Shown: positions 5,931-11,904 of the stretch, one piece after another
Numbering within the stretch: position 1 is the first letter of the stretch
Layout: each line of letters begins with the position of its first letter
Virus record (IMG/VR): IMGVR_UViG_2645727563_000002
Span: 1 to 55,868 of that record
DNA length: 55,868 bases
Source: a virus
Lineage: Duplodnaviria > Heunggongvirae > Uroviricota > Caudoviricetes
Strand: one strand, 5' to 3'
Notes under the pieces: model-generated
What the model was told of the DNA's origin: nothing
The model's database searches: none
What the model saw: the letters and a program-made list of their open reading frames with translations, nothing else
Made by a program: the position numbers and the translations under genes

Positions 5931-6932
5931 TTAAGGCTTCGGCTTTTTATCGAGGCTCTTTCTAAGGATATGCCCAATCATCCTGTCGAGTTCTTCCTGT
6001 AGCTCTTTTGAAAGTCGATTAAACTCATAAGAAAATGCACGGCCTTTCACGCGCTTCCTTGCAAAGCGATCCTTGTCCTCAAATTTCCATAATTCAGTAA
6101 CTACGGACTTATCTTTAGAACCTTTATCCGTGAGTAGTGAGGCTTCCTTTGTTATCAAGCGCAGGATTTTATTTTTAACTTCATCTTCGGCCATTTCTTC
6201 AATGGATAAGATGTCGTTTATTTCCGGGGATATGTTTTGAATAAGCTGATCAAACTCTAAATTCTTGTTCCCCATTTCGTCGCCAACAGCACAAAGCGTT
6301 TTGTAGTCCGAAAAGGTCAATTCCGACTGCACAGGGAAAAGGGCGACTAATTCTTCCGGAGCACTCGCTGCCTGGAGAGCACGCGTGACCTTCGCCTGAG
6401 ATAGCCCTTCTTTGGCTGCAATATCCTTCTGACTCATCCCATCATTTTTCATTCGCATCAAACGCAGACCTATTTCTCGAATGCTGTGCTGCAATGCTGT
6501 CTGAACGTCTTTCGCTAAATTTTGCGCTTCCTGAACGCTGATCTCCTGGTCCGTGACTAAAACCCGCAACCCTACGTTCTCTAAGATGGCAGAAGCTCGA
6601 CGCCGGGAACCATCCAAAATTTCAATTTTCCCTGTAGCCCGTCTAACACCTATTGCAGGGTAAAATTGCTGATGCTTAATAGTGCTTCGGATACTTTTTA
6701 ATGATTTTGGCGTAAGAGATGCCTGGTCACGACCATTGTTATGCTGATCAACAAAGGTATCGCTTTCTACCTGATTCGGAGGTATTACCTCTTCAATAAA
6801 TGTGGCCTGGCGACCTGTTGATAACTTGAATACCTGCTCGACTCGATCGCCAGAGGCTGAAGAACTATCAAATCCGCTTAATATTGAAGGATTAAGGGTT
6901 CGCCCAATTGTTGGTCTGTTTTTCTTTGACAT
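5931..6932 (-). CDS. parB: partition protein ParB (333 aa)
   Basis: 333 aa, same length as P1 ParB; follows parA and precedes parS. Confidence 0.85.
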   Translation of the reverse strand: MSKKNRPTIGRTLNPSILSGFDSSSASGDRVEQVFKLSTGRQATFIEEVIPPNQVESDTFVDQHNNGRDQASLTPKSLKSIRSTIKHQQFYPAIGVRRATGKIEILDGSRRRASAILENVGLRVLVTDQEISVQEAQNLAKDVQTALQHSIREIGLRLMRMKNDGMSQKDIAAKEGLSQAKVTRALQAASAPEELVALFPVQSELTFSDYKTLCAVGDEMGNKNLEFDQLIQNISPEINDILSIEEMAEDEVKNKILRLITKEASLLTDKGSKDKSVVTELWKFEDKDRFARKRVKGRAFSYEFNRLSKELQEELDRMIGHILRKSLDKKPKP

Positions 6933-6948: not shown

Positions 6949-8145
6949 TCAGTTAGATCTGATAAATTCAATACGGTCAAAAACTGCTTTAGCAAAATCT
7001 TCCGCGGCAATTCGCGCGTTCTTCAATGCATCAGCACTACCAACATACGTTGCCGGGTTAGCTGAAATAACAGTGTCAAAAGACTCGCCGCAGCGTTCAA
7101 AACCGTCAAGGCGAGGGAGGACAACATCAAGCATATCCCCACCGAACACTTCTTTAGCCAGGCTATGGCAATACTTATGGTCTGCCTTGTTACTCAACTT
7201 GGACATAAAACCAATGTTAGTTGCAAGCTGACACTCGCAGCCTTCATCCGAAATGAGTTTCACCAACTCAGGAAGGCGGGCAACGTATTTAAGCGATGAG
7301 TGGAAATCAACCGTTGCAGGCGGCAGAGGTGTAAACAGTATATTGGCCGAGGCCAAAGCATTTTTCAGGAAGGCATCAAGGTGAGGACCACTATCAACGA
7401 GGATAAAGTCATAATCGCTCTTCAGCTTATCAATCACATTTTCTTTCAGGACAGCATGGATGTTCTGACCCGGTAGATGCTCATTGCACAGCTCTCTCCA
7501 ATCGGATGCAATAAAGGCATCGTCAATCGACGCAGGCATAACGTCAACCCCAGGTACAACAGAAGGAACAATAAACTCCTCTAACAGCTCTTCACGGCTT
7601 ACATTCTGCAACATAGCCTGTGCAGATGTTGCGTTTACGATACCAATAGAGTGTTTATGGCTTAAAAACATCGTCGCTGAAGATTGCGGATCAAGGTCAA
7701 TAACCAGAATCCTTAAATCTTCCATCAGAAGATGAGGGTGGGCACGCATTGCATGCGCCAGAGAAACCGTCGATACAGTTTTTGACACACCGCCTTTAAG
7801 ATTGGAGATGAAAATCACATACGCTTCGCTGTAGCGATCCCGGTATTTTGGCACTCCGCGATGTTCATATATGTCAATGATGTTCTGAATTGACATCGCA
7901 TATTTCATTGAAGAGCCAGCAGGGCGTTTATCGAAAACATAACCCTTTTCTTCCATTTCACTTACGGCATAGTCAACGTTCGCTCGAGTCAGTAGAGGCA
8001 ATTTTGCCAGTGCCGCTTTCGCATAGACCTGGTAAAACTCGTTCGCGTGTAGCTCATCCTTTTGCAACTGTACTTGTTCAGTCAGAACATTGAGCATTCT
8101 GTTTGCTCTTTGAGCAACCTTGTGAAGCTGGCTGGAATCACTCAT
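6949..8145 (-). CDS. parA: partition ATPase ParA (398 aa)
   Basis: Deviant Walker A ISNLKGGVSKT; 398 aa as in P1 ParA. Confidence 0.85.
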   Translation of the reverse strand: MSDSSQLHKVAQRANRMLNVLTEQVQLQKDELHANEFYQVYAKAALAKLPLLTRANVDYAVSEMEEKGYVFDKRPAGSSMKYAMSIQNIIDIYEHRGVPKYRDRYSEAYVIFISNLKGGVSKTVSTVSLAHAMRAHPHLLMEDLRILVIDLDPQSSATMFLSHKHSIGIVNATSAQAMLQNVSREELLEEFIVPSVVPGVDVMPASIDDAFIASDWRELCNEHLPGQNIHAVLKENVIDKLKSDYDFILVDSGPHLDAFLKNALASANILFTPLPPATVDFHSSLKYVARLPELVKLISDEGCECQLATNIGFMSKLSNKADHKYCHSLAKEVFGGDMLDVVLPRLDGFERCGESFDTVISANPATYVGSADALKNARIAAEDFAKAVFDRIEFIRSN

Positions 8146-8284
8146 CGAAAGTCATCCTTTATGCTGTATTTTTGAATTTACTTAAAAATGCTGCATAAAA
8201 TAATAATGTATGCACAGATGCTTGTACATAGCATTCTCTGCATGTTTGGTTCATTTTGCACGATTGAGAGTTACAAGGAGGGCA

Positions 8285-8307
8285 CAAAAAAGCCCCGTTC
8301 AGGGGCA
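8285..8307 (-). terminator. rho-independent terminator
   Basis: Hairpin gcccc-gttca-ggggc with A-run on the plus strand (T-run on minus), 3' of the 8314-8574 ORF. Confidence 0.5.
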
Positions 8308-8313
8308 TCAGTG

Positions 8314-8574
8314 TTATTTGCTAAGAGCAGCGAATAATCGTTCGAAATCGATAGTATCTATAGCACGCGTAAGCGCCGGAAGTTCAGCCTCAAAGTACCC
8401 GTGTCGATCGTAAAAGAAGGGACCGAAGAGCGAGGCATGTTGGATTCTACTTCGCCCCAGCCCGGACACACAGTTAAGCCCATTACCGGCTAAAAGGCTA
8501 AAAAACTTCTCTGGATTATCGTGGTAAAGCTGGGAATCAATGGTGGCGGTTAACTCTTCCATAGGGAAGCACAC
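8314..8574 (-). CDS. hypothetical protein (86 aa), possibly the 3' remnant of an IS-interrupted gene
   Basis: GTG-initiated ORF abutting the IS left end, has its own terminator; reading frame is closed by a stop at 8596-8598. Confidence 0.3.
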   Translation of the reverse strand: MCFPMEELTATIDSQLYHDNPEKFFSLLAGNGLNCVSGLGRSRIQHASLFGPFFYDRHGYFEAELPALTRAIDTIDFERLFAALSK

Positions 8575-8671
8575 CCGCCCTGTATCCCAGGGATATTTAG
8601 CGAAAAACGCCGTAAACCCTCGCCCAATGCGGGCGGGGATATAAGGCGAAAAGCCCGCAGGGCTTTAAAGA

Positions 8672-9097
8672 TCAATCAGGTGTTGACTGACTCTGAACGT
8701 AGGCTCTGAGCGTTTCAATCGTTGCCCCTCCGGTGCTACAGACAAAGTACGATCTCGACCACAAAAGCCCCGTTTTACTCTGCATACGTAAATGCGCGTT
8801 CTGCTGGCGTAGCAAACGTGATGATACCGATTTTAAATTATTGACCATCACACTGACCGCCAGTTTTGGCGGGTAGGCCACCAGCAGGTGTACATGGTCT
8901 GGCTCCCCGTCCATCTCAATAATTTCGCATTCAAGCTTTGCCGCAGCGGAGCCAAAAGCCTCACGCAACTGAGCGATCATCTGACTGTCGAATAGTTTGC
9001 GTCGATACTTTGTCGTAAAAATAAGGTGCACAACCAGCTTACTGACACTGTGTCGTTTGCGGAGAAATCCCGCCAGTAAATCATCATGATTACTCAA
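8672..9097 (-). CDS. tnpA: IS200-type Y1 (HuH) transposase TnpA (141 aa)
   Basis: HuH motif HVHLLV and overall IS200 TnpA size/sequence. Confidence 0.8.
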   Translation of the reverse strand: MSNHDDLLAGFLRKRHSVSKLVVHLIFTTKYRRKLFDSQMIAQLREAFGSAAAKLECEIIEMDGEPDHVHLLVAYPPKLAVSVMVNNLKSVSSRLLRQQNAHLRMQSKTGLLWSRSYFVCSTGGATIETLRAYVQSQSTPD

Positions 9098-9153
9098 TTG
9101 ATATATTCACCTAAAGTGTTAAAATAAAAGCATTATATCAATGAGCGCTGACT

Positions 9154-10323
9154 ATGTTAAGAGCAACAAAAGTACGCATCTACCCGACACCAGAACAGGC
9201 TGAATTTATCAACGCCCAGTTCGGTGCAGTGCGTTTTGCGTACAACAAAGCTCTGCATATCAAGAAACATTCTTACCAGCGGCACCGCGTAAATTTAAAC
9301 CCGCGTAAAGACCTCAAACCACTGCTTGCAGTGGCGAAGAAATCCCGCCGGTATGGATGGCTTAAAGAATATGATTCTATTGCGTTGCAGCAGGCGGTAA
9401 TTAACCTCGACGTGGCTTTTTCTAACTTTTTCAATCCGAAACTGAAAGCAGGTAAACCTACCTTTAAAAGTAAACACGGCAGACAATCGAGCTATCATTG
9501 TGTTGGCATAAAAGTCCTTGATGGTGCGATAAAAATACCGAAAATCTTGCCGATTGAAGCGCGTTTACATCGTGAAATTACGGGAATGCTGAAAAGTATC
9601 ACGTTGAGCCGCAGCGCAACCGGGAAATACTACGCGTCGTTACTCTGTGACGACGGGATGGAAGCGCCGGCAAAGCCCGCACTGATATCAAATGTGACAG
9701 GGCTGGATATGGGGCTGGCGCATTTTGTCATCAAATCGGACGGCAATAAAATTGCCAGTCCCCGCCACCTAATCAATGCAAGTCGCAACCTGCGCCGGAA
9801 GCAGAAAGCACTGTCCCGTAAGAAAAAAGGGAGCGCAAACAGGCGCAAAGCCAGAATACAACTTGCAGCCGTTCACGAACGGGTAGCCAGTGCCCGTGCC
9901 GATTTCCAGCACAAGTTATCTCGCGCAATTGTTGACGAAAACCAAGCGGTAATTGTCGAGACATTGAAAACGGCAAATATGATGAAAAATCACCATCTGG
10001 CTCGTGCGATAGGCGATGCTGGATGGTCTGGATTCATCACAAAACTGGAATACAAAGCAGCAGAGAAAGGTGTGCATCTGGTGAAACTGGATCAATGGTT
10101 CGCCAGTTCGAAAACCTGCCACTGCTGCGGTCACAAAATGTCGGAGATGCCATTACATAAGCGCATCTGGCAGTGTCCAGAGTGTGGAGTTGAACATGAC
10201 CGCGATATCAACGCGGCGCTCAACATCAAACGCAAGGGCATACTGGAATTACAAGCGGCGGGACTCGTCGTTTCTGCCCATGGAGGCCAGCGTAAATCCG
10301 TCACACAGACGGTTGCGGCTTAA
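9154..10323 (+). CDS. tnpB: TnpB (IS605 OrfB-type RuvC-like RNA-guided nuclease, 389 aa)
   Basis: C-terminal zinc finger CHCCGH...CPECG and RuvC-like segments typical of TnpB. Confidence 0.8.
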   Translation: MLRATKVRIYPTPEQAEFINAQFGAVRFAYNKALHIKKHSYQRHRVNLNPRKDLKPLLAVAKKSRRYGWLKEYDSIALQQAVINLDVAFSNFFNPKLKAGKPTFKSKHGRQSSYHCVGIKVLDGAIKIPKILPIEARLHREITGMLKSITLSRSATGKYYASLLCDDGMEAPAKPALISNVTGLDMGLAHFVIKSDGNKIASPRHLINASRNLRRKQKALSRKKKGSANRRKARIQLAAVHERVASARADFQHKLSRAIVDENQAVIVETLKTANMMKNHHLARAIGDAGWSGFITKLEYKAAEKGVHLVKLDQWFASSKTCHCCGHKMSEMPLHKRIWQCPECGVEHDRDINAALNIKRKGILELQAAGLVVSAHGGQRKSVTQTVAA

Positions 10324-10657
10324 GAAGTGGGAAGCCTCGCCCGACAGGGCGGGGAGCAGTCACATATTCGATATGAGCCAAAACCTTATCAAGACACTCT
10401 CGTGTAAACCATTCAGTATGCCCGCCACCGACGCTTTTCTCCCACGGCGCATTCCAGGGGAAAAAGGTTGCGTGTAAAGCCCGCTCAAGATTAACCATTG
10501 CCAAACGTGTACCACGATAGACCCGTGAAAGCGCAAAATCGGGACTCACTTGTAGCCCTTTAAACCGTGCCAATGGACCACATGAAATGCCGATTTTAAA
10601 AGTATCTCCGTTCTCTGGCACCAGAACGTAGAGGTAGTGTTGTTTCTCTTCTTGCAT
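10301..10657 (-). CDS. T5orf172/GIY-YIG-like N-terminal domain ORF whose 3' end runs into the IS right end
   Basis: N-terminus YLYVLVPENGDTFKIGIS...GGGHTEWF resembles the T5orf172 domain; the last about 20 codons are encoded by the IS hairpin region. Confidence 0.3.
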   Translation of the reverse strand: MQEEKQHYLYVLVPENGDTFKIGISCGPLARFKGLQVSPDFALSRVYRGTRLAMVNLERALHATFFPWNAPWEKSVGGGHTEWFTRECLDKVLAHIEYVTAPRPVGRGFPLLKPQPSV

Positions 10658-10675
10658 ATCAATACCACTGCTTGA

Positions 10676-10960
10676 TGAGAACCGCGCAAATGTTGACTAT
10701 GCGCGAAGGTTAATGTGAATAGTTGACTATGCGCGATGTGACTACAGTCAAAAGTTGACTGTAGTCGATTTAACTCCACCAAAAATCGACTATGTAAGAT
10801 ATTGTCGGGAGAAACGTTGACTATACGCGATGAAATGACCCTAAAAGCCATCTCAATAGCAGCTTGCAGAATATTGACGCCAGCAAAAATCCACCAGCGT
10901 CAACGAATGTCGCCTATAGTCAACTTCTCGCTATCGCATATAGTCAATATTATGGATTGC
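10676..10960. repeat. incA-like RepA iteron array (both orientations)
   Basis: About 7 copies of TTGACTATGCGCGA-like repeats (ttgactatgcgcga, ttgactgtagtcga, tcgactatgtaaga, ttgactatacgcga, and inverted copies) downstream of repA. Confidence 0.5.
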
Positions 10961-11834
10961 GCTTATGGATCTGGAAGCCGATTTTCCTGCCGTTTTTTAT
11001 CTCTGAAAATTTAAGATATTCAATAGCTTCCAAATCTTTCATGGCTTTTCTGATAACGCTATTTTGCACGCTAACGGATGATTTGAGATTAAGCCTTGCT
11101 CTAAGGCGCTCAATGCTGACAGGTGCCGGGTTGGCAGGTAGAGCCTCAAAGAATGTATACAGTACCTTGGCCGTCTCTTTGCGCCCGAGCTTATCCAGCA
11201 TCTTCAGCTTCAGGATTCGCTTATAGTCAACATAGTAAAGTTCAGATAGCTGTTTCTGCGGCTGGATCTCGATAACATCAAGCTCGGTATTCAGGCTGCT
11301 ATATGCCAACAAGTTGACGTTAATGTTATTGAGATGACCTTTTGCCGCCGGGAAGCGGAATTTGACAACTGTCTGCTGAATGCGTGTCAGAGAGTCATCA
11401 ATACTTTTACGGAACGCCTTTGAAAGACGCTTACGTGGATAGCCGCATCGATCGGCAAACTCGGAGAATGGCAGGGTGATTATACCGTCATCATCAGGTG
11501 CATAGTCAAACAACGCGGAGGTTATGCCCAACCACACCTTAAAATCAGTATCCATATCCAGGCGTGGACCATGAATTTCAATTCCCTCATAGCCTTCCTG
11601 CTCAACAATTTTGAGGCTTGATAGTTCTTCAGTTGCGTTCGTTGTGTTTGTTGTAACTGACGATCCGCGACGTAGCGCCACATTGGTAGATTTTAAGGTT
11701 GGCACAAACACACCTAAACGCAACAAAGCGATGGGTTGTATAGTGCTGTTGTTATTGGGCTTCAGGCTGTGGATTTCTCCTGTATTTCCTGCAACTTCTT
11801 CAACGCTAAGGAAGCCTTTACTTTCTTCCGGCAT
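10950..11834 (-). CDS. repA: replication initiator RepA (P1 RepA family, about 294 aa)
   Basis: GPRLDMDTDFKVWLGI matches the conserved block of P1 RepA; ATG at 11834 preceded by GGAG. Confidence 0.8.
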   Translation of the reverse strand: MPEESKGFLSVEEVAGNTGEIHSLKPNNNSTIQPIALLRLGVFVPTLKSTNVALRRGSSVTTNTTNATEELSSLKIVEQEGYEGIEIHGPRLDMDTDFKVWLGITSALFDYAPDDDGIITLPFSEFADRCGYPRKRLSKAFRKSIDDSLTRIQQTVVKFRFPAAKGHLNNINVNLLAYSSLNTELDVIEIQPQKQLSELYYVDYKRILKLKMLDKLGRKETAKVLYTFFEALPANPAPVSIERLRARLNLKSSVSVQNSVIRKAMKDLEAIEYLKFSEIKNGRKIGFQIHKRNP

Positions 11835-11904
11835 CGTGGTTTCTCCATGTGTGGCGCGGCCTGACGTCAATTTGGATGGCTGTTATCAACAGCTGTGAAT
11901 ATTC

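What the first reader, a model, noticed from the sequence alone, without database searches (positions are those of the whole stretch)
8285..10660. IS605-type element (tnpA + tnpB) inserted between parA and the incA iterons, apparently splitting a gene
A Y1 HuH transposase and a TnpB RuvC/zinc-finger nuclease are arranged divergently with matching subterminal hairpins (cgccc-N-gggcg) near 8620 and 10340. On the minus strand an ORF with a T5orf172/GIY-YIG-like N-terminus (10657 downward) runs into the IS right end, and a second ORF with its own terminator resumes just beyond the left end (8574-8314). This is consistent with a single host gene cut by the insertion. TnpB is an RNA-guided nuclease, so the right-end RNA and its flanking guide are also of interest.
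Basis: partly seen in the sequence, partly recalled or inferred. Interest (0 to 1): 0.55.

Follow-up and report, generated by a model that had tools for sequence, protein, structure and literature searches.

The report
ISEc46 insertion in a P1-like plasmid
A well-known E. coli jumping gene (ISEc46, IS200/IS605 family) has landed in an accessory nuclease-like gene of a P1-like phage-plasmid and 229 bases of that gene were lost with it; this is an ordinary mobile-element insertion with one small mechanistic twist.

Summary
Window 8601-10363 (1763 bp) is a complete copy of ISEc46. It is 100% identical to copies in E. coli chromosomes and has intact tnpA, intact tnpB and matching subterminal hairpins. 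It sits 3' of TTAG, as do seven other independent copies.

It interrupts a 269-aa T5orf172/GIY-YIG-like accessory gene (phrog_2876, function unknown). That gene lies between the par promoter and the incA-type iterons in about 400 SJ46-type P1-like plasmids.

Relative to IS-free relatives, 229 bp of the gene are missing, so the two flanking ORFs do not rejoin in frame. The intact gene has exactly two TTAG motifs on the IS top strand, and the lost segment is exactly the interval between them. That points to an IS-linked event: either TnpA joining at a second target motif, or two insertions followed by recombination.

No intermediate, no IS-free deletion allele and no second example of this junction was found in any collection. 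Three other ISEc46 loci are clean insertions.

TnpB keeps the ISDra2 catalytic triad. The guide RNA from the right end is inferred, not shown.

Verdict: a known element, a new insertion site, low interest.

The parts
8292..8306 (-). Terminator-like hairpin (GCCCC-TGAAC-GGGGC followed by TTTTTT) after the host gene's stop codon
8314..8600 (-). 3' fragment of the host T5orf172/GIY-YIG gene (gene nt 524-810, i.e. ...KYPWDTGRVCFPMEEL...AALSK*). It has no start codon of its own; ORF 8574..8314 begins at an internal GTG.
8597..8600 (+). TTAG: TnpA left cleavage/target tetranucleotide and inferred TnpB TAM. It is host sequence, not part of the IS.
   Evidence: TTAG precedes the left end at 8 independent insertion sites
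8601..10363 (+). ISEc46, complete, 1763 bp. It starts CGAAAAACG and ends GCAGTCAC.
   Evidence: 100% identical to chromosomal ISEc46 copies. It is the only copy in the window.
8614..8638 (+). Left-end recognition module: guide tetranucleotide AAAC (8614-8617) plus imperfect palindrome CCTCGCCC-AATGC-GGGCGGGG (8618-8638). The foot of the hairpin is 17 nt from the cleavage point.
   Evidence: AAAC/TTAG fits the IS608 pairing rule (PMC5934647). Natural variants with GAAC are flanked by TCAG.
8651..8665 (.). Second left-end hairpin AAGCCC-GCA-GGGCTT. On the minus strand it is followed by TTTT and sits just after the tnpA stop.
   Evidence: A second left-end hairpin is described for IS608, ISDra2 and IS605 (PMC5934647).
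8672..9097 (-). tnpA, Y1 HUH transposase, 141 aa, TTG start (same coordinates as the RefSeq tnpA WP_000064874 in identical copies)
9098..9160 (.). Divergent promoter-like sites in the tnpA-tnpB spacer: (+) TTGATA-16-TAAAAT and (-) TTAACA-17-TATAAT
   Evidence: consensus matches only
9154..10323 (+). tnpB, 389 aa. RuvC triad D185/E269/D351; CxxC at 322-325 and 341-344.
   Evidence: E=1e-74 to ISDra2 TnpB, PDB 8exa/8h1j
10215..10363 (+). Inferred omega/right-end RNA scaffold (3' end of tnpB plus the right end). The 5' boundary is approximate.
   Evidence: Third-codon and non-coding conservation rise here. A consensus fold exists but shows no compensatory changes. Placed by analogy to ISDra2 (PMC8612924).
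10331..10363 (+). Right-end recognition module: guide GAAG (10331-10334), imperfect palindrome CCTCGCCC-GACA-GGGCGGGG (10335-10354), cleavage tetranucleotide TCAC (10360-10363)
10364..10379 (+). Inferred 16-nt guide segment ATATTCGATATGAGCC (host DNA flanking the right end)
   Evidence: No other match in the window. In IS-free relatives the same 16 nt follow the gene's second TTAG.
10364..10657 (-). 5' fragment of the host gene (codons 1-98, which include the whole T5orf172 Pfam match). The ORF reads on into the IS for 20 more codons and stops at 10301.
10688..10830 (.). incA-type iterons (five 19-nt repeats, about 31-nt spacing). They are context only and are not disrupted.

Best explanation
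Window 8601-10363 is an intact, recently acquired copy of the insertion sequence ISEc46 (IS200/IS605 family).

Inferred from the family's known mechanism: it moves as single-stranded DNA by 'peel and paste'. The small Y1 HUH transposase TnpA binds the two subterminal hairpins. It finds its cleavage sites by base-pairing between a 4-nt internal guide and a 4-nt cleavage site (AAAC with TTAG on the left, GAAG with TCAC on the right). It inserts 3' of TTAG without duplicating the target.

Shown here: the element lies in a 269-aa T5orf172/GIY-YIG-like accessory gene, between the par promoter and the incA-type iterons of an SJ46-type P1-like phage-plasmid. That gene is now inactivated. Unlike three other ISEc46 loci examined, this insertion comes with the loss of 229 bp, and the lost segment is exactly the interval between the only two TTAG motifs the gene carries on the IS top strand.

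Most likely cause of the deletion (inferred, about 0.65 overall): it is IS-linked, by one of two routes. (a) TnpA cleaved at one IS end and at the other TTAG and joined them, an intramolecular version of its normal integration chemistry. (b) Copies inserted at both TTAGs in the same orientation and then recombined.

Also inferred: TnpB has all catalytic residues and should load a right-end RNA whose 16-nt guide is the flanking host sequence ATATTCGATATGAGCC. With TTAG as the TAM, this would target both the donor joint left by excision and the intact allele in sibling plasmids.

Plasmid maintenance functions (Ppar/parA, iterons, repA) are untouched.
For: Identity:
- 1767/1767 nt match annotated ISEc46 copies. 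RCS47's annotation names ISEc46.

Ends and target:
- TTAG precedes the left end at 8 independent sites, and the right end always finishes with TCAC.
- The hairpins are confirmed.
- The guide/cleavage tetranucleotides obey the IS608 rule. Natural GAAC variants are flanked by TCAG.

Proteins:
- TnpA HUH and Tyr are present.
- TnpB D185/E269/D351 align with ISDra2 D191/E278/D361.

Host gene and deletion:
- Flanks are 99% identical to IS-free phages and plasmids that carry an intact 269-aa gene.
- 229 bp are missing, bounded on both sides by ATTTAG.
- The gene has exactly 2 TTAG in 810 nt on that strand. The chance that a random deletion endpoint falls right after a TTAG is therefore about 0.0025.
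- No IS-free deletion allele turned up among the 401 plasmids holding the gene, nor in any other collection. The positive control for this probe method worked.

Other loci:
- Three other ISEc46 loci are clean insertions with no duplication and no loss.
Against: - The deletion mechanism is not demonstrated. No intermediate was found: neither an IS at either TTAG with the 229 bp still present, nor the window's own junctions, appears in any collection.
- The two sites share 6 nt (ATTTAG), two more than TnpA needs. That fits microhomology slippage equally well.
- I found no published description of TnpA-mediated adjacent deletions in the held library.
- The omega RNA has no covariation support and no Rfam family above threshold.
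- Reads were not available, so an assembly collapse cannot be excluded.
Confidence: 0.8

Rival explanations
1. The deletion is independent of the IS. Replication slippage or microhomology recombination between the two 6-bp ATTTAG repeats removed the 229 bp. This happened either before the IS arrived (the IS then landed on the surviving TTAG) or after it had inserted at the second TTAG.
For: The two sites share ATTTAG, 6 nt, which is two more than the TTAG that TnpA needs. Short direct repeats are a classic substrate for slippage deletions (established knowledge).
Against: It needs a coincidence. The window alone holds 277 TTAG sites on its two strands, yet the IS sits exactly at the deletion joint. 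No IS-free deletion allele was found in plasmids, complete E. coli genomes, viral contigs or GTDB genomes, and the positive control for the probe method worked.
Confidence: 0.15
2. Assembly artefact. The real plasmid carries two ISEc46 copies in direct orientation, one at each TTAG, with the 229 bp between them. The assembler collapsed the repeat, which dropped one copy and the short unique segment.
For: A collapsed IS-229 bp-IS arrangement would give exactly the observed sequence. ISEc46 is also a multi-copy repeat in many hosts, with up to 5 places per genome.
Against: No record in any collection shows an IS at either TTAG with the 229 bp retained. There is nothing odd at the junctions. This cannot be tested without reads.
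Confidence: 0.07
3. One reading: a simple insertion that cuts one gene in two, so that removing the IS restores a continuous ORF.
For: Both ORFs are fragments of one gene, and the IS ends are at the junctions.
Against: 229 bp of the gene are absent. The excised joint is out of frame and terminates after 114 codons.
Confidence: 0.02

Closest known systems
ISEc46 (IS200/IS605 family, E. coli), as annotated in RefSeq and in phage RCS47
   Same: The sequence is identical over the whole element (1763 bp plus the TTAG). The tnpA and tnpB products are the same (WP_000064874, WP_000942661). The target tetranucleotide is the same.
   Different: Only the location differs, plus the accompanying 229-bp loss. 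This insertion site was not found in any searched collection.
IS608 of Helicobacter pylori (the reference system for TnpA mechanism)
   Same: Both have a Y1 HUH TnpA (E=3.5e-20 to PDB 2a6m) and subterminal imperfect palindromes with a T mismatch. In both, a 4-nt guide 5' of each hairpin pairs with a 4-nt cleavage site by the same rule. Spacing is similar: 17 and 9 nt here against 19 and 10 nt in IS608. Both have a second left-end hairpin and make no target duplication.
   Different: The target is TTAG rather than TTAC, and the right cleavage site is TCAC rather than TCAA. tnpA and tnpB are divergent here, whereas I recall them as co-directional in IS608. No biochemistry exists for ISEc46.
ISDra2 TnpB with its right-end (omega) RNA, Deinococcus radiodurans
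   Same: The TnpB proteins are homologous over their full length (E=1e-74) and share the conserved D/E/D triad and zinc finger. The 3' end of tnpB plus the right end is unusually conserved, as expected for an overlapping RNA scaffold.
   Different: The TAM would be TTAG rather than TTGAT. The RNA, its boundaries and its activity are inferred here, not observed.
tnpA-less ISEc46-like elements in other P1-like / IncY plasmids (RCS47, NZ_CP029365, NZ_CP063350)
   Same: Same tnpB lineage (80-99% identity) with the same left-end and right-end hairpins, also resident in P1-like phage-plasmids.
   Different: They lack tnpA and sit at other sites (next to repL or dam). Two of them use TCAG with guide GAAC. 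The window has none of these.

Membership tests
IS200/IS605 family insertion sequence (ISEc46) | Small Y1 HUH transposase TnpA with an HUH motif and a catalytic tyrosine | tested here: met
   Pfam Y1_Tnp, 133 bits. H68-V-H70 and Y133 align with the HUH motif and Y127 region of IS608 TnpA.
IS200/IS605 family insertion sequence (ISEc46) | Subterminal imperfect palindromes at both ends instead of terminal inverted repeats | tested here: met
   Hairpins at 8618-8638 and 10335-10354 share the same stem, which includes a T.G mismatch. The termini CGAAAAAC... and ...GCAGTCAC are not inverted repeats (read directly from the sequence).
IS200/IS605 family insertion sequence (ISEc46) | Insertion 3' of a fixed tetra/pentanucleotide without target-site duplication | tested here: met
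   TTAG sits 5' of the left end at 8 independent sites. The excised flanks of three other loci match IS-free genomes in one contiguous piece. At the window's own site this cannot be tested cleanly because of the 229-bp loss.
IS200/IS605 family insertion sequence (ISEc46) | Guide tetranucleotide 5' of each hairpin is complementary (by the IS608 rule) to the cleavage tetranucleotide | tested here: met
   AAAC pairs with TTAG and GAAG pairs with TCAC. The rule is taken from PMC3201880 and PMC5934647. Natural covariation supports it: GAAC variants are flanked by TCAG.
IS200/IS605 family insertion sequence (ISEc46) | Sequence identity to the named element | tested here: met
   100% identity to copies whose tnpA RefSeq names 'ISEc46 family transposase'. 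ISfinder's own entry was not available.
IS200/IS605 family insertion sequence (ISEc46) | Strand-specific single-strand excision and integration activity | not testable with these tools
   This needs in-vitro or in-vivo transposition assays.
TnpB / omega-RNA (OMEGA) RNA-guided nuclease | TnpB fold with the RuvC D-E-D triad and a zinc finger | tested here: met
   E=1e-74 to ISDra2 TnpB structures. D185/E269/D351 align with D191/E278/D361. CxxC motifs are at 322-325 and 341-344.
TnpB / omega-RNA (OMEGA) RNA-guided nuclease | Structured RNA scaffold encoded by the tnpB 3' end plus the right end | tested here: inconclusive
   Third-codon identity is 0.75 in the last 117 nt of tnpB against 0.56-0.67 upstream, and the right end is 0.93-0.95 identical. 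A consensus fold exists, but no pair in the 3' 110 nt shows a compensatory change. The fold z-score is -2.07. The only Rfam match is HgcC at 17 bits against a gathering score of 50.
TnpB / omega-RNA (OMEGA) RNA-guided nuclease | TAM-dependent, guide-dependent DNA cleavage | not testable with these tools
   This needs a plasmid-interference or in-vitro cleavage assay.
T5orf172 / GIY-YIG-like phage protein (phrog_2876), the interrupted host gene | T5orf172 domain above the Pfam cut-off | tested here: met
   29.5 bits (window fragment) and 26.9 bits (intact homologue), both against a cut-off of 20. The intact protein matches phrog_2876 end to end, E=1.4e-194.
T5orf172 / GIY-YIG-like phage protein (phrog_2876), the interrupted host gene | Complete 269-aa reading frame | tested here: not met
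   The gene is split by the IS and lacks gene nt 295-523, and the remaining parts are out of frame.

The most novel reading that the evidence does not exclude
The 229-bp loss was catalysed by TnpA itself: an IS end was joined to the next TTAG, an 'adjacent deletion' activity that, as far as I could find, has not been described for IS200/IS605 transposases. Because such a deletion ends at a TAM, the new right-flank guide (ATATTCGATATGAGCC) still matches a TTAG-adjacent site in the intact allele. The element would therefore stay armed to cut, and home into, IS-free sibling P1-like phage-plasmids of the same incompatibility group, acting as a small gene drive or competition weapon between phage-plasmids.
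Probability: 0.2. Interest if true: 0.4.

Novelty: already known. Interest (0 to 1): 0.15.

Why it matters
Practically, this corrects the annotation. The two small ORFs on either side are remnants of one dead accessory gene, and the element between them is ISEc46.

It shows that this plasmid lineage tolerates loss of the T5orf172 gene, and that the par and incA control regions are left intact.

The one point of wider interest is the deletion, which spans exactly from one TTAG to the next. If TnpA made it, that would add a rearrangement activity to a family thought to excise and insert precisely. It would also show how a TnpB guide can be re-set while remaining functional. This is a single case, and it is not enough to claim that.

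Tried and rejected
- **Rfam scan of 7900-11100 at E<=1.** The only match is a sub-threshold HgcC hit over the right-end hairpin. It cannot be used as evidence.
- **Covariation test of the putative omega RNA.** I used seven ISEc46-like copies of 78-99% identity. The region is too conserved to be informative: only G-C/G-U changes appear and no compensatory pairs in the 3' 110 nt.
- **Search for the window's own junctions, the IS-free deletion joint, and both possible intermediates.** All were negative:
  - plasmids and complete E. coli genomes: all five junction probes;
  - viral contigs: the left junction, the deletion joint and both intermediates;
  - GTDB genomes: the left junction and the deletion joint;
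  - metagenome contigs: the left junction and the two intermediates. The IS-free deletion joint was not scanned there.
  
  The positive control for the probe method hit as computed.
- **PADLOC on the host protein.** No defence-system match.
- **Literature search for TnpA-mediated adjacent deletions.** Nothing relevant was found in the held library.
- **My own recollection that P1's upfA lies between parA and incA.** The P1 record shows this is wrong. upfA lies beyond oriR, and P1 has no gene between Ppar and incA.
- **A general link between ISEc46 and flanking deletions.** Rejected: three other loci are clean insertions.
- **Lagging-strand orientation relative to oriR.** Considered but not pursued, because I could not verify P1 fork directions with the tools.
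Full report
**1. What is there**

The region lies in the plasmid-maintenance module of a P1-like phage-plasmid. The context is:
- parB at 6932..5931 (-) and parA at 8145..6949 (-). The parA product carries Pfam ParA-HTH and AAA_31.
- A RepA-type initiator at 11870..10950 (-).
- Five 19-nt iterons spaced about 31 nt apart at 10688-10830.

The flanks of the finding (8102-8600 and 10364-10900) are about 99% identical to SJ46, JL22, phi456 and other Punavirus records, and to roughly 400 PLSDB plasmids.

Between those flanks lies a 1763-bp element, 8601-10363. Together with the 4 nt before it, this element is 100% identical (1767/1767) to copies in E. coli chromosomes. RefSeq annotates those copies as 'IS200/IS605-like element ISEc46 family transposase' plus 'RNA-guided endonuclease InsQ/TnpB'. 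Matches to it occur in 1049 of 5426 complete E. coli genomes. The window holds only this one copy.

**2. Anatomy of the element**

- *tnpA*: 9097..8672 (-), 141 aa, Pfam Y1_Tnp E=5.8e-39. H68-V-H70 and Y133 align to IS608 TnpA.
- *tnpB*: 9154..10323 (+), 389 aa. It carries the three Pfam TnpB domains and matches ISDra2 TnpB structures at E=1e-74. D185/E269/D351 align to the catalytic D191/E278/D361, and there are two CxxC pairs.
- *Promoters*: the genes are divergent, with promoter-like sites on both strands in the 56-bp spacer.
- *Hairpins*: the two ends carry the same imperfect hairpin, CCTCGCCC-AATGC-GGGCGGGG at 8618-8638 and CCTCGCCC-GACA-GGGCGGGG at 10335-10354.
- *Target*: across eight independent insertion sites (five E. 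coli loci, an Enterobacter plasmid, a Serratia plasmid and this window), the 4 nt before the left end are always TTAG and the element always ends in TCAC.
- *Recognition rule*: in IS608 the cleavage tetranucleotides TTAC and TCAA are read by the internal guides AAAG and GAAT located 5' of each hairpin (PMC3201880, PMC5934647). Here the corresponding guides are AAAC (8614-8617) and GAAG (10331-10334). Under the same pairing rule these specify exactly TTAG and TCAC. As a natural control, tnpA-less relatives in RCS47 and NZ_CP029365 have GAAC in place of AAAC and are flanked by TCAG in place of TTAG.
- *Clean insertions elsewhere*: at three other loci the flanks with the IS removed match IS-free genomes in one contiguous piece. 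Those are clean insertions with no target duplication.

The element therefore meets every sequence-level criterion of the family.

**3. The interrupted gene and the missing 229 bp**

IS-free relatives carry one 810-bp gene here, a 269-aa 'GIY-YIG nuclease family protein' (WP_001154687). Pfam finds a T5orf172 domain at residues 8-85, and the protein matches phrog_2876 (unknown function) end to end. It has no PADLOC match. P1 itself has no gene at this position, only about 190 bp between Ppar and incA, so this is an accessory gene of the SJ46-type lineage.

The window keeps gene nt 1-294 (10657..10364) and nt 524-810 (8600..8314). Nucleotides 295-523 are absent. Because 229 is not divisible by three, even a precise excision would give a frameshifted 114-codon product.

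As the sequence stands, the 5' fragment reads 20 codons into the IS before stopping at 10301. The 3' fragment has no start codon of its own.

**4. Why the deletion looks IS-linked**

On the strand that carries the IS top strand, the intact gene has exactly two TTAG motifs, and the lost segment runs from just after the first to the end of the second. The left junction must be a TTAG because the IS inserts there. The chance that the other deletion endpoint also falls at a TTAG is about 2 in 810.

Three routes give the observed product:
- (a) TnpA cleaves at one IS end and at the other TTAG and joins them, which is the chemistry of integration applied within one molecule.
- (b) Two copies insert, one at each TTAG, in the same orientation, and homologous recombination removes one copy and the spacer.
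- (c) Slippage occurs between the 6-bp ATTTAG repeats, before or after insertion.

Route (c) needs the IS and the deletion joint to coincide by chance.

To look for witnesses I built 56-nt junction probes for the following:
- the IS-free deletion allele;
- an IS at either TTAG with the spacer retained;
- the window's own two junctions.

The searches came out as follows:
- None of the five probes hit PLSDB or the complete E. coli genomes at a threshold that only a full junction can pass. A control junction hit exactly as calculated.
- Exact-pattern scans of viral contigs were negative for the left junction, the deletion joint and both intermediates.
- GTDB genomes were negative for the left junction and the deletion joint.
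- Metagenome contigs were negative for the left junction and the two intermediates. The IS-free deletion joint was not scanned there.
- All 25 plasmids sampled from the 401 that hold the gene retain the 229 bp.

So the event is unique to this source and its order cannot be reconstructed. I rate an IS-linked origin at about 0.65, slippage at about 0.15-0.2, and an assembly collapse of an IS-229 bp-IS arrangement at just under 0.1. I found no description of TnpA-mediated adjacent deletion in the held literature.

**5. TnpB and its RNA**

In ISDra2, TnpB binds an RNA of about 150 nt made from the tnpB 3' end and the right end. Its last ~16 nt come from the flanking DNA and act as the guide, and the TnpA target serves as the TAM (PMC8612924).

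The evidence here is as follows:
- Among copies 78-88% identical overall, third-codon identity rises to 0.75 in the last 117 nt of tnpB, against 0.56-0.67 upstream. The non-coding right end is 93-95% identical.
- A consensus fold with three or four stems exists, but it shows no compensatory changes.
- The single-sequence fold is only modestly better than shuffles, z=-2.07.
- Rfam has nothing above threshold.

The RNA is therefore a reasonable inference and not a finding.

The inferred guide, ATATTCGATATGAGCC (10364-10379), has no second match in the window. In IS-free relatives it directly follows the second TTAG. If the RNA is active, this copy would cut the intact allele in sibling plasmids as well as its own donor joint.

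**6. Consequences for the plasmid**

- The par promoter/operator region next to parA and the iterons are outside the insertion and are unchanged relative to IS-free relatives.
- The accessory gene is dead.
- The IS is identical to chromosomal copies, so the insertion is recent.

**7. Verdict**

The element is a catalogued IS at a new site, which is ordinary. The TTAG-to-TTAG deletion is a neat single observation that would need reads and biochemistry before it means anything general.

Noticed in passing
L002 2416-3747 (RCS47), L017 ~221-1548 (NZ_CP029365), L015/L016 302-1634 (NZ_CP063350, NZ_CP020936): Other P1-like/IncY plasmids carry tnpA-less ISEc46-like elements (about 90 nt of left end, then tnpB and the right end). 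They sit next to repL or downstream of dam. In two of them the left-end guide is GAAC and the flank is TCAG, instead of AAAC and TTAG. This is a natural covariation that fits the IS608 target-recognition rule.
   Followed up: partly
L001 1713-2520 (phage vB_EcoM-673R5, ON470615): In this IS-free relative the same T5orf172 gene carries two single-base deletions relative to the window and to L012. It is annotated there as two overlapping CDSs. This is either a pseudogene or homopolymer sequencing errors.
   Followed up: no
window 10264-10369 (+): There is a sub-threshold Rfam match to HgcC (17.1 bits against a gathering score of 50, E=0.76). It is anchored on the right-end hairpin CCUCGCCC-GACA-GGGCGGGG and is not usable as evidence.
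   Followed up: no
L018 (P1, NC_005856) 2246-2520, compared with window 8146-10687: P1 proper has only about 190 bp between Ppar and incA. The 269-aa T5orf172/GIY-YIG gene (phrog_2876) is an accessory gene of SJ46-type relatives, present in about 400 PLSDB plasmids. Its function is unknown.
   Followed up: partly
L013 ~1719 (NZ_CP146684) and L014 1797-1857 (NZ_CP056201): One ISEc46-like copy has a 13-nt deletion inside the region predicted to be the omega-RNA scaffold. Another has lost most of the segment between the tnpB 3' end and the right-end hairpin. Both are probably decayed copies.
   Followed up: no
window 10688-10830: The five 19-nt iterons (consensus about AAANGTTGACTATGCGCGA, 30-32 nt apart) lie at the position of the annotated P1 incA RepA-binding iterons. 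The neighbouring initiator is a Rep3/RepFIB-type protein rather than one annotated as P1 RepA.
   Followed up: no
H130-H135 (moaE-ybhL locus in IS-free E. coli genomes): The excised-flank query of 700 nt spans 701 nt in the best IS-free genomes (99.7% identity, one piece). I did not locate the 1-nt indel, so I did not check whether it lies at the insertion point.
   Followed up: no
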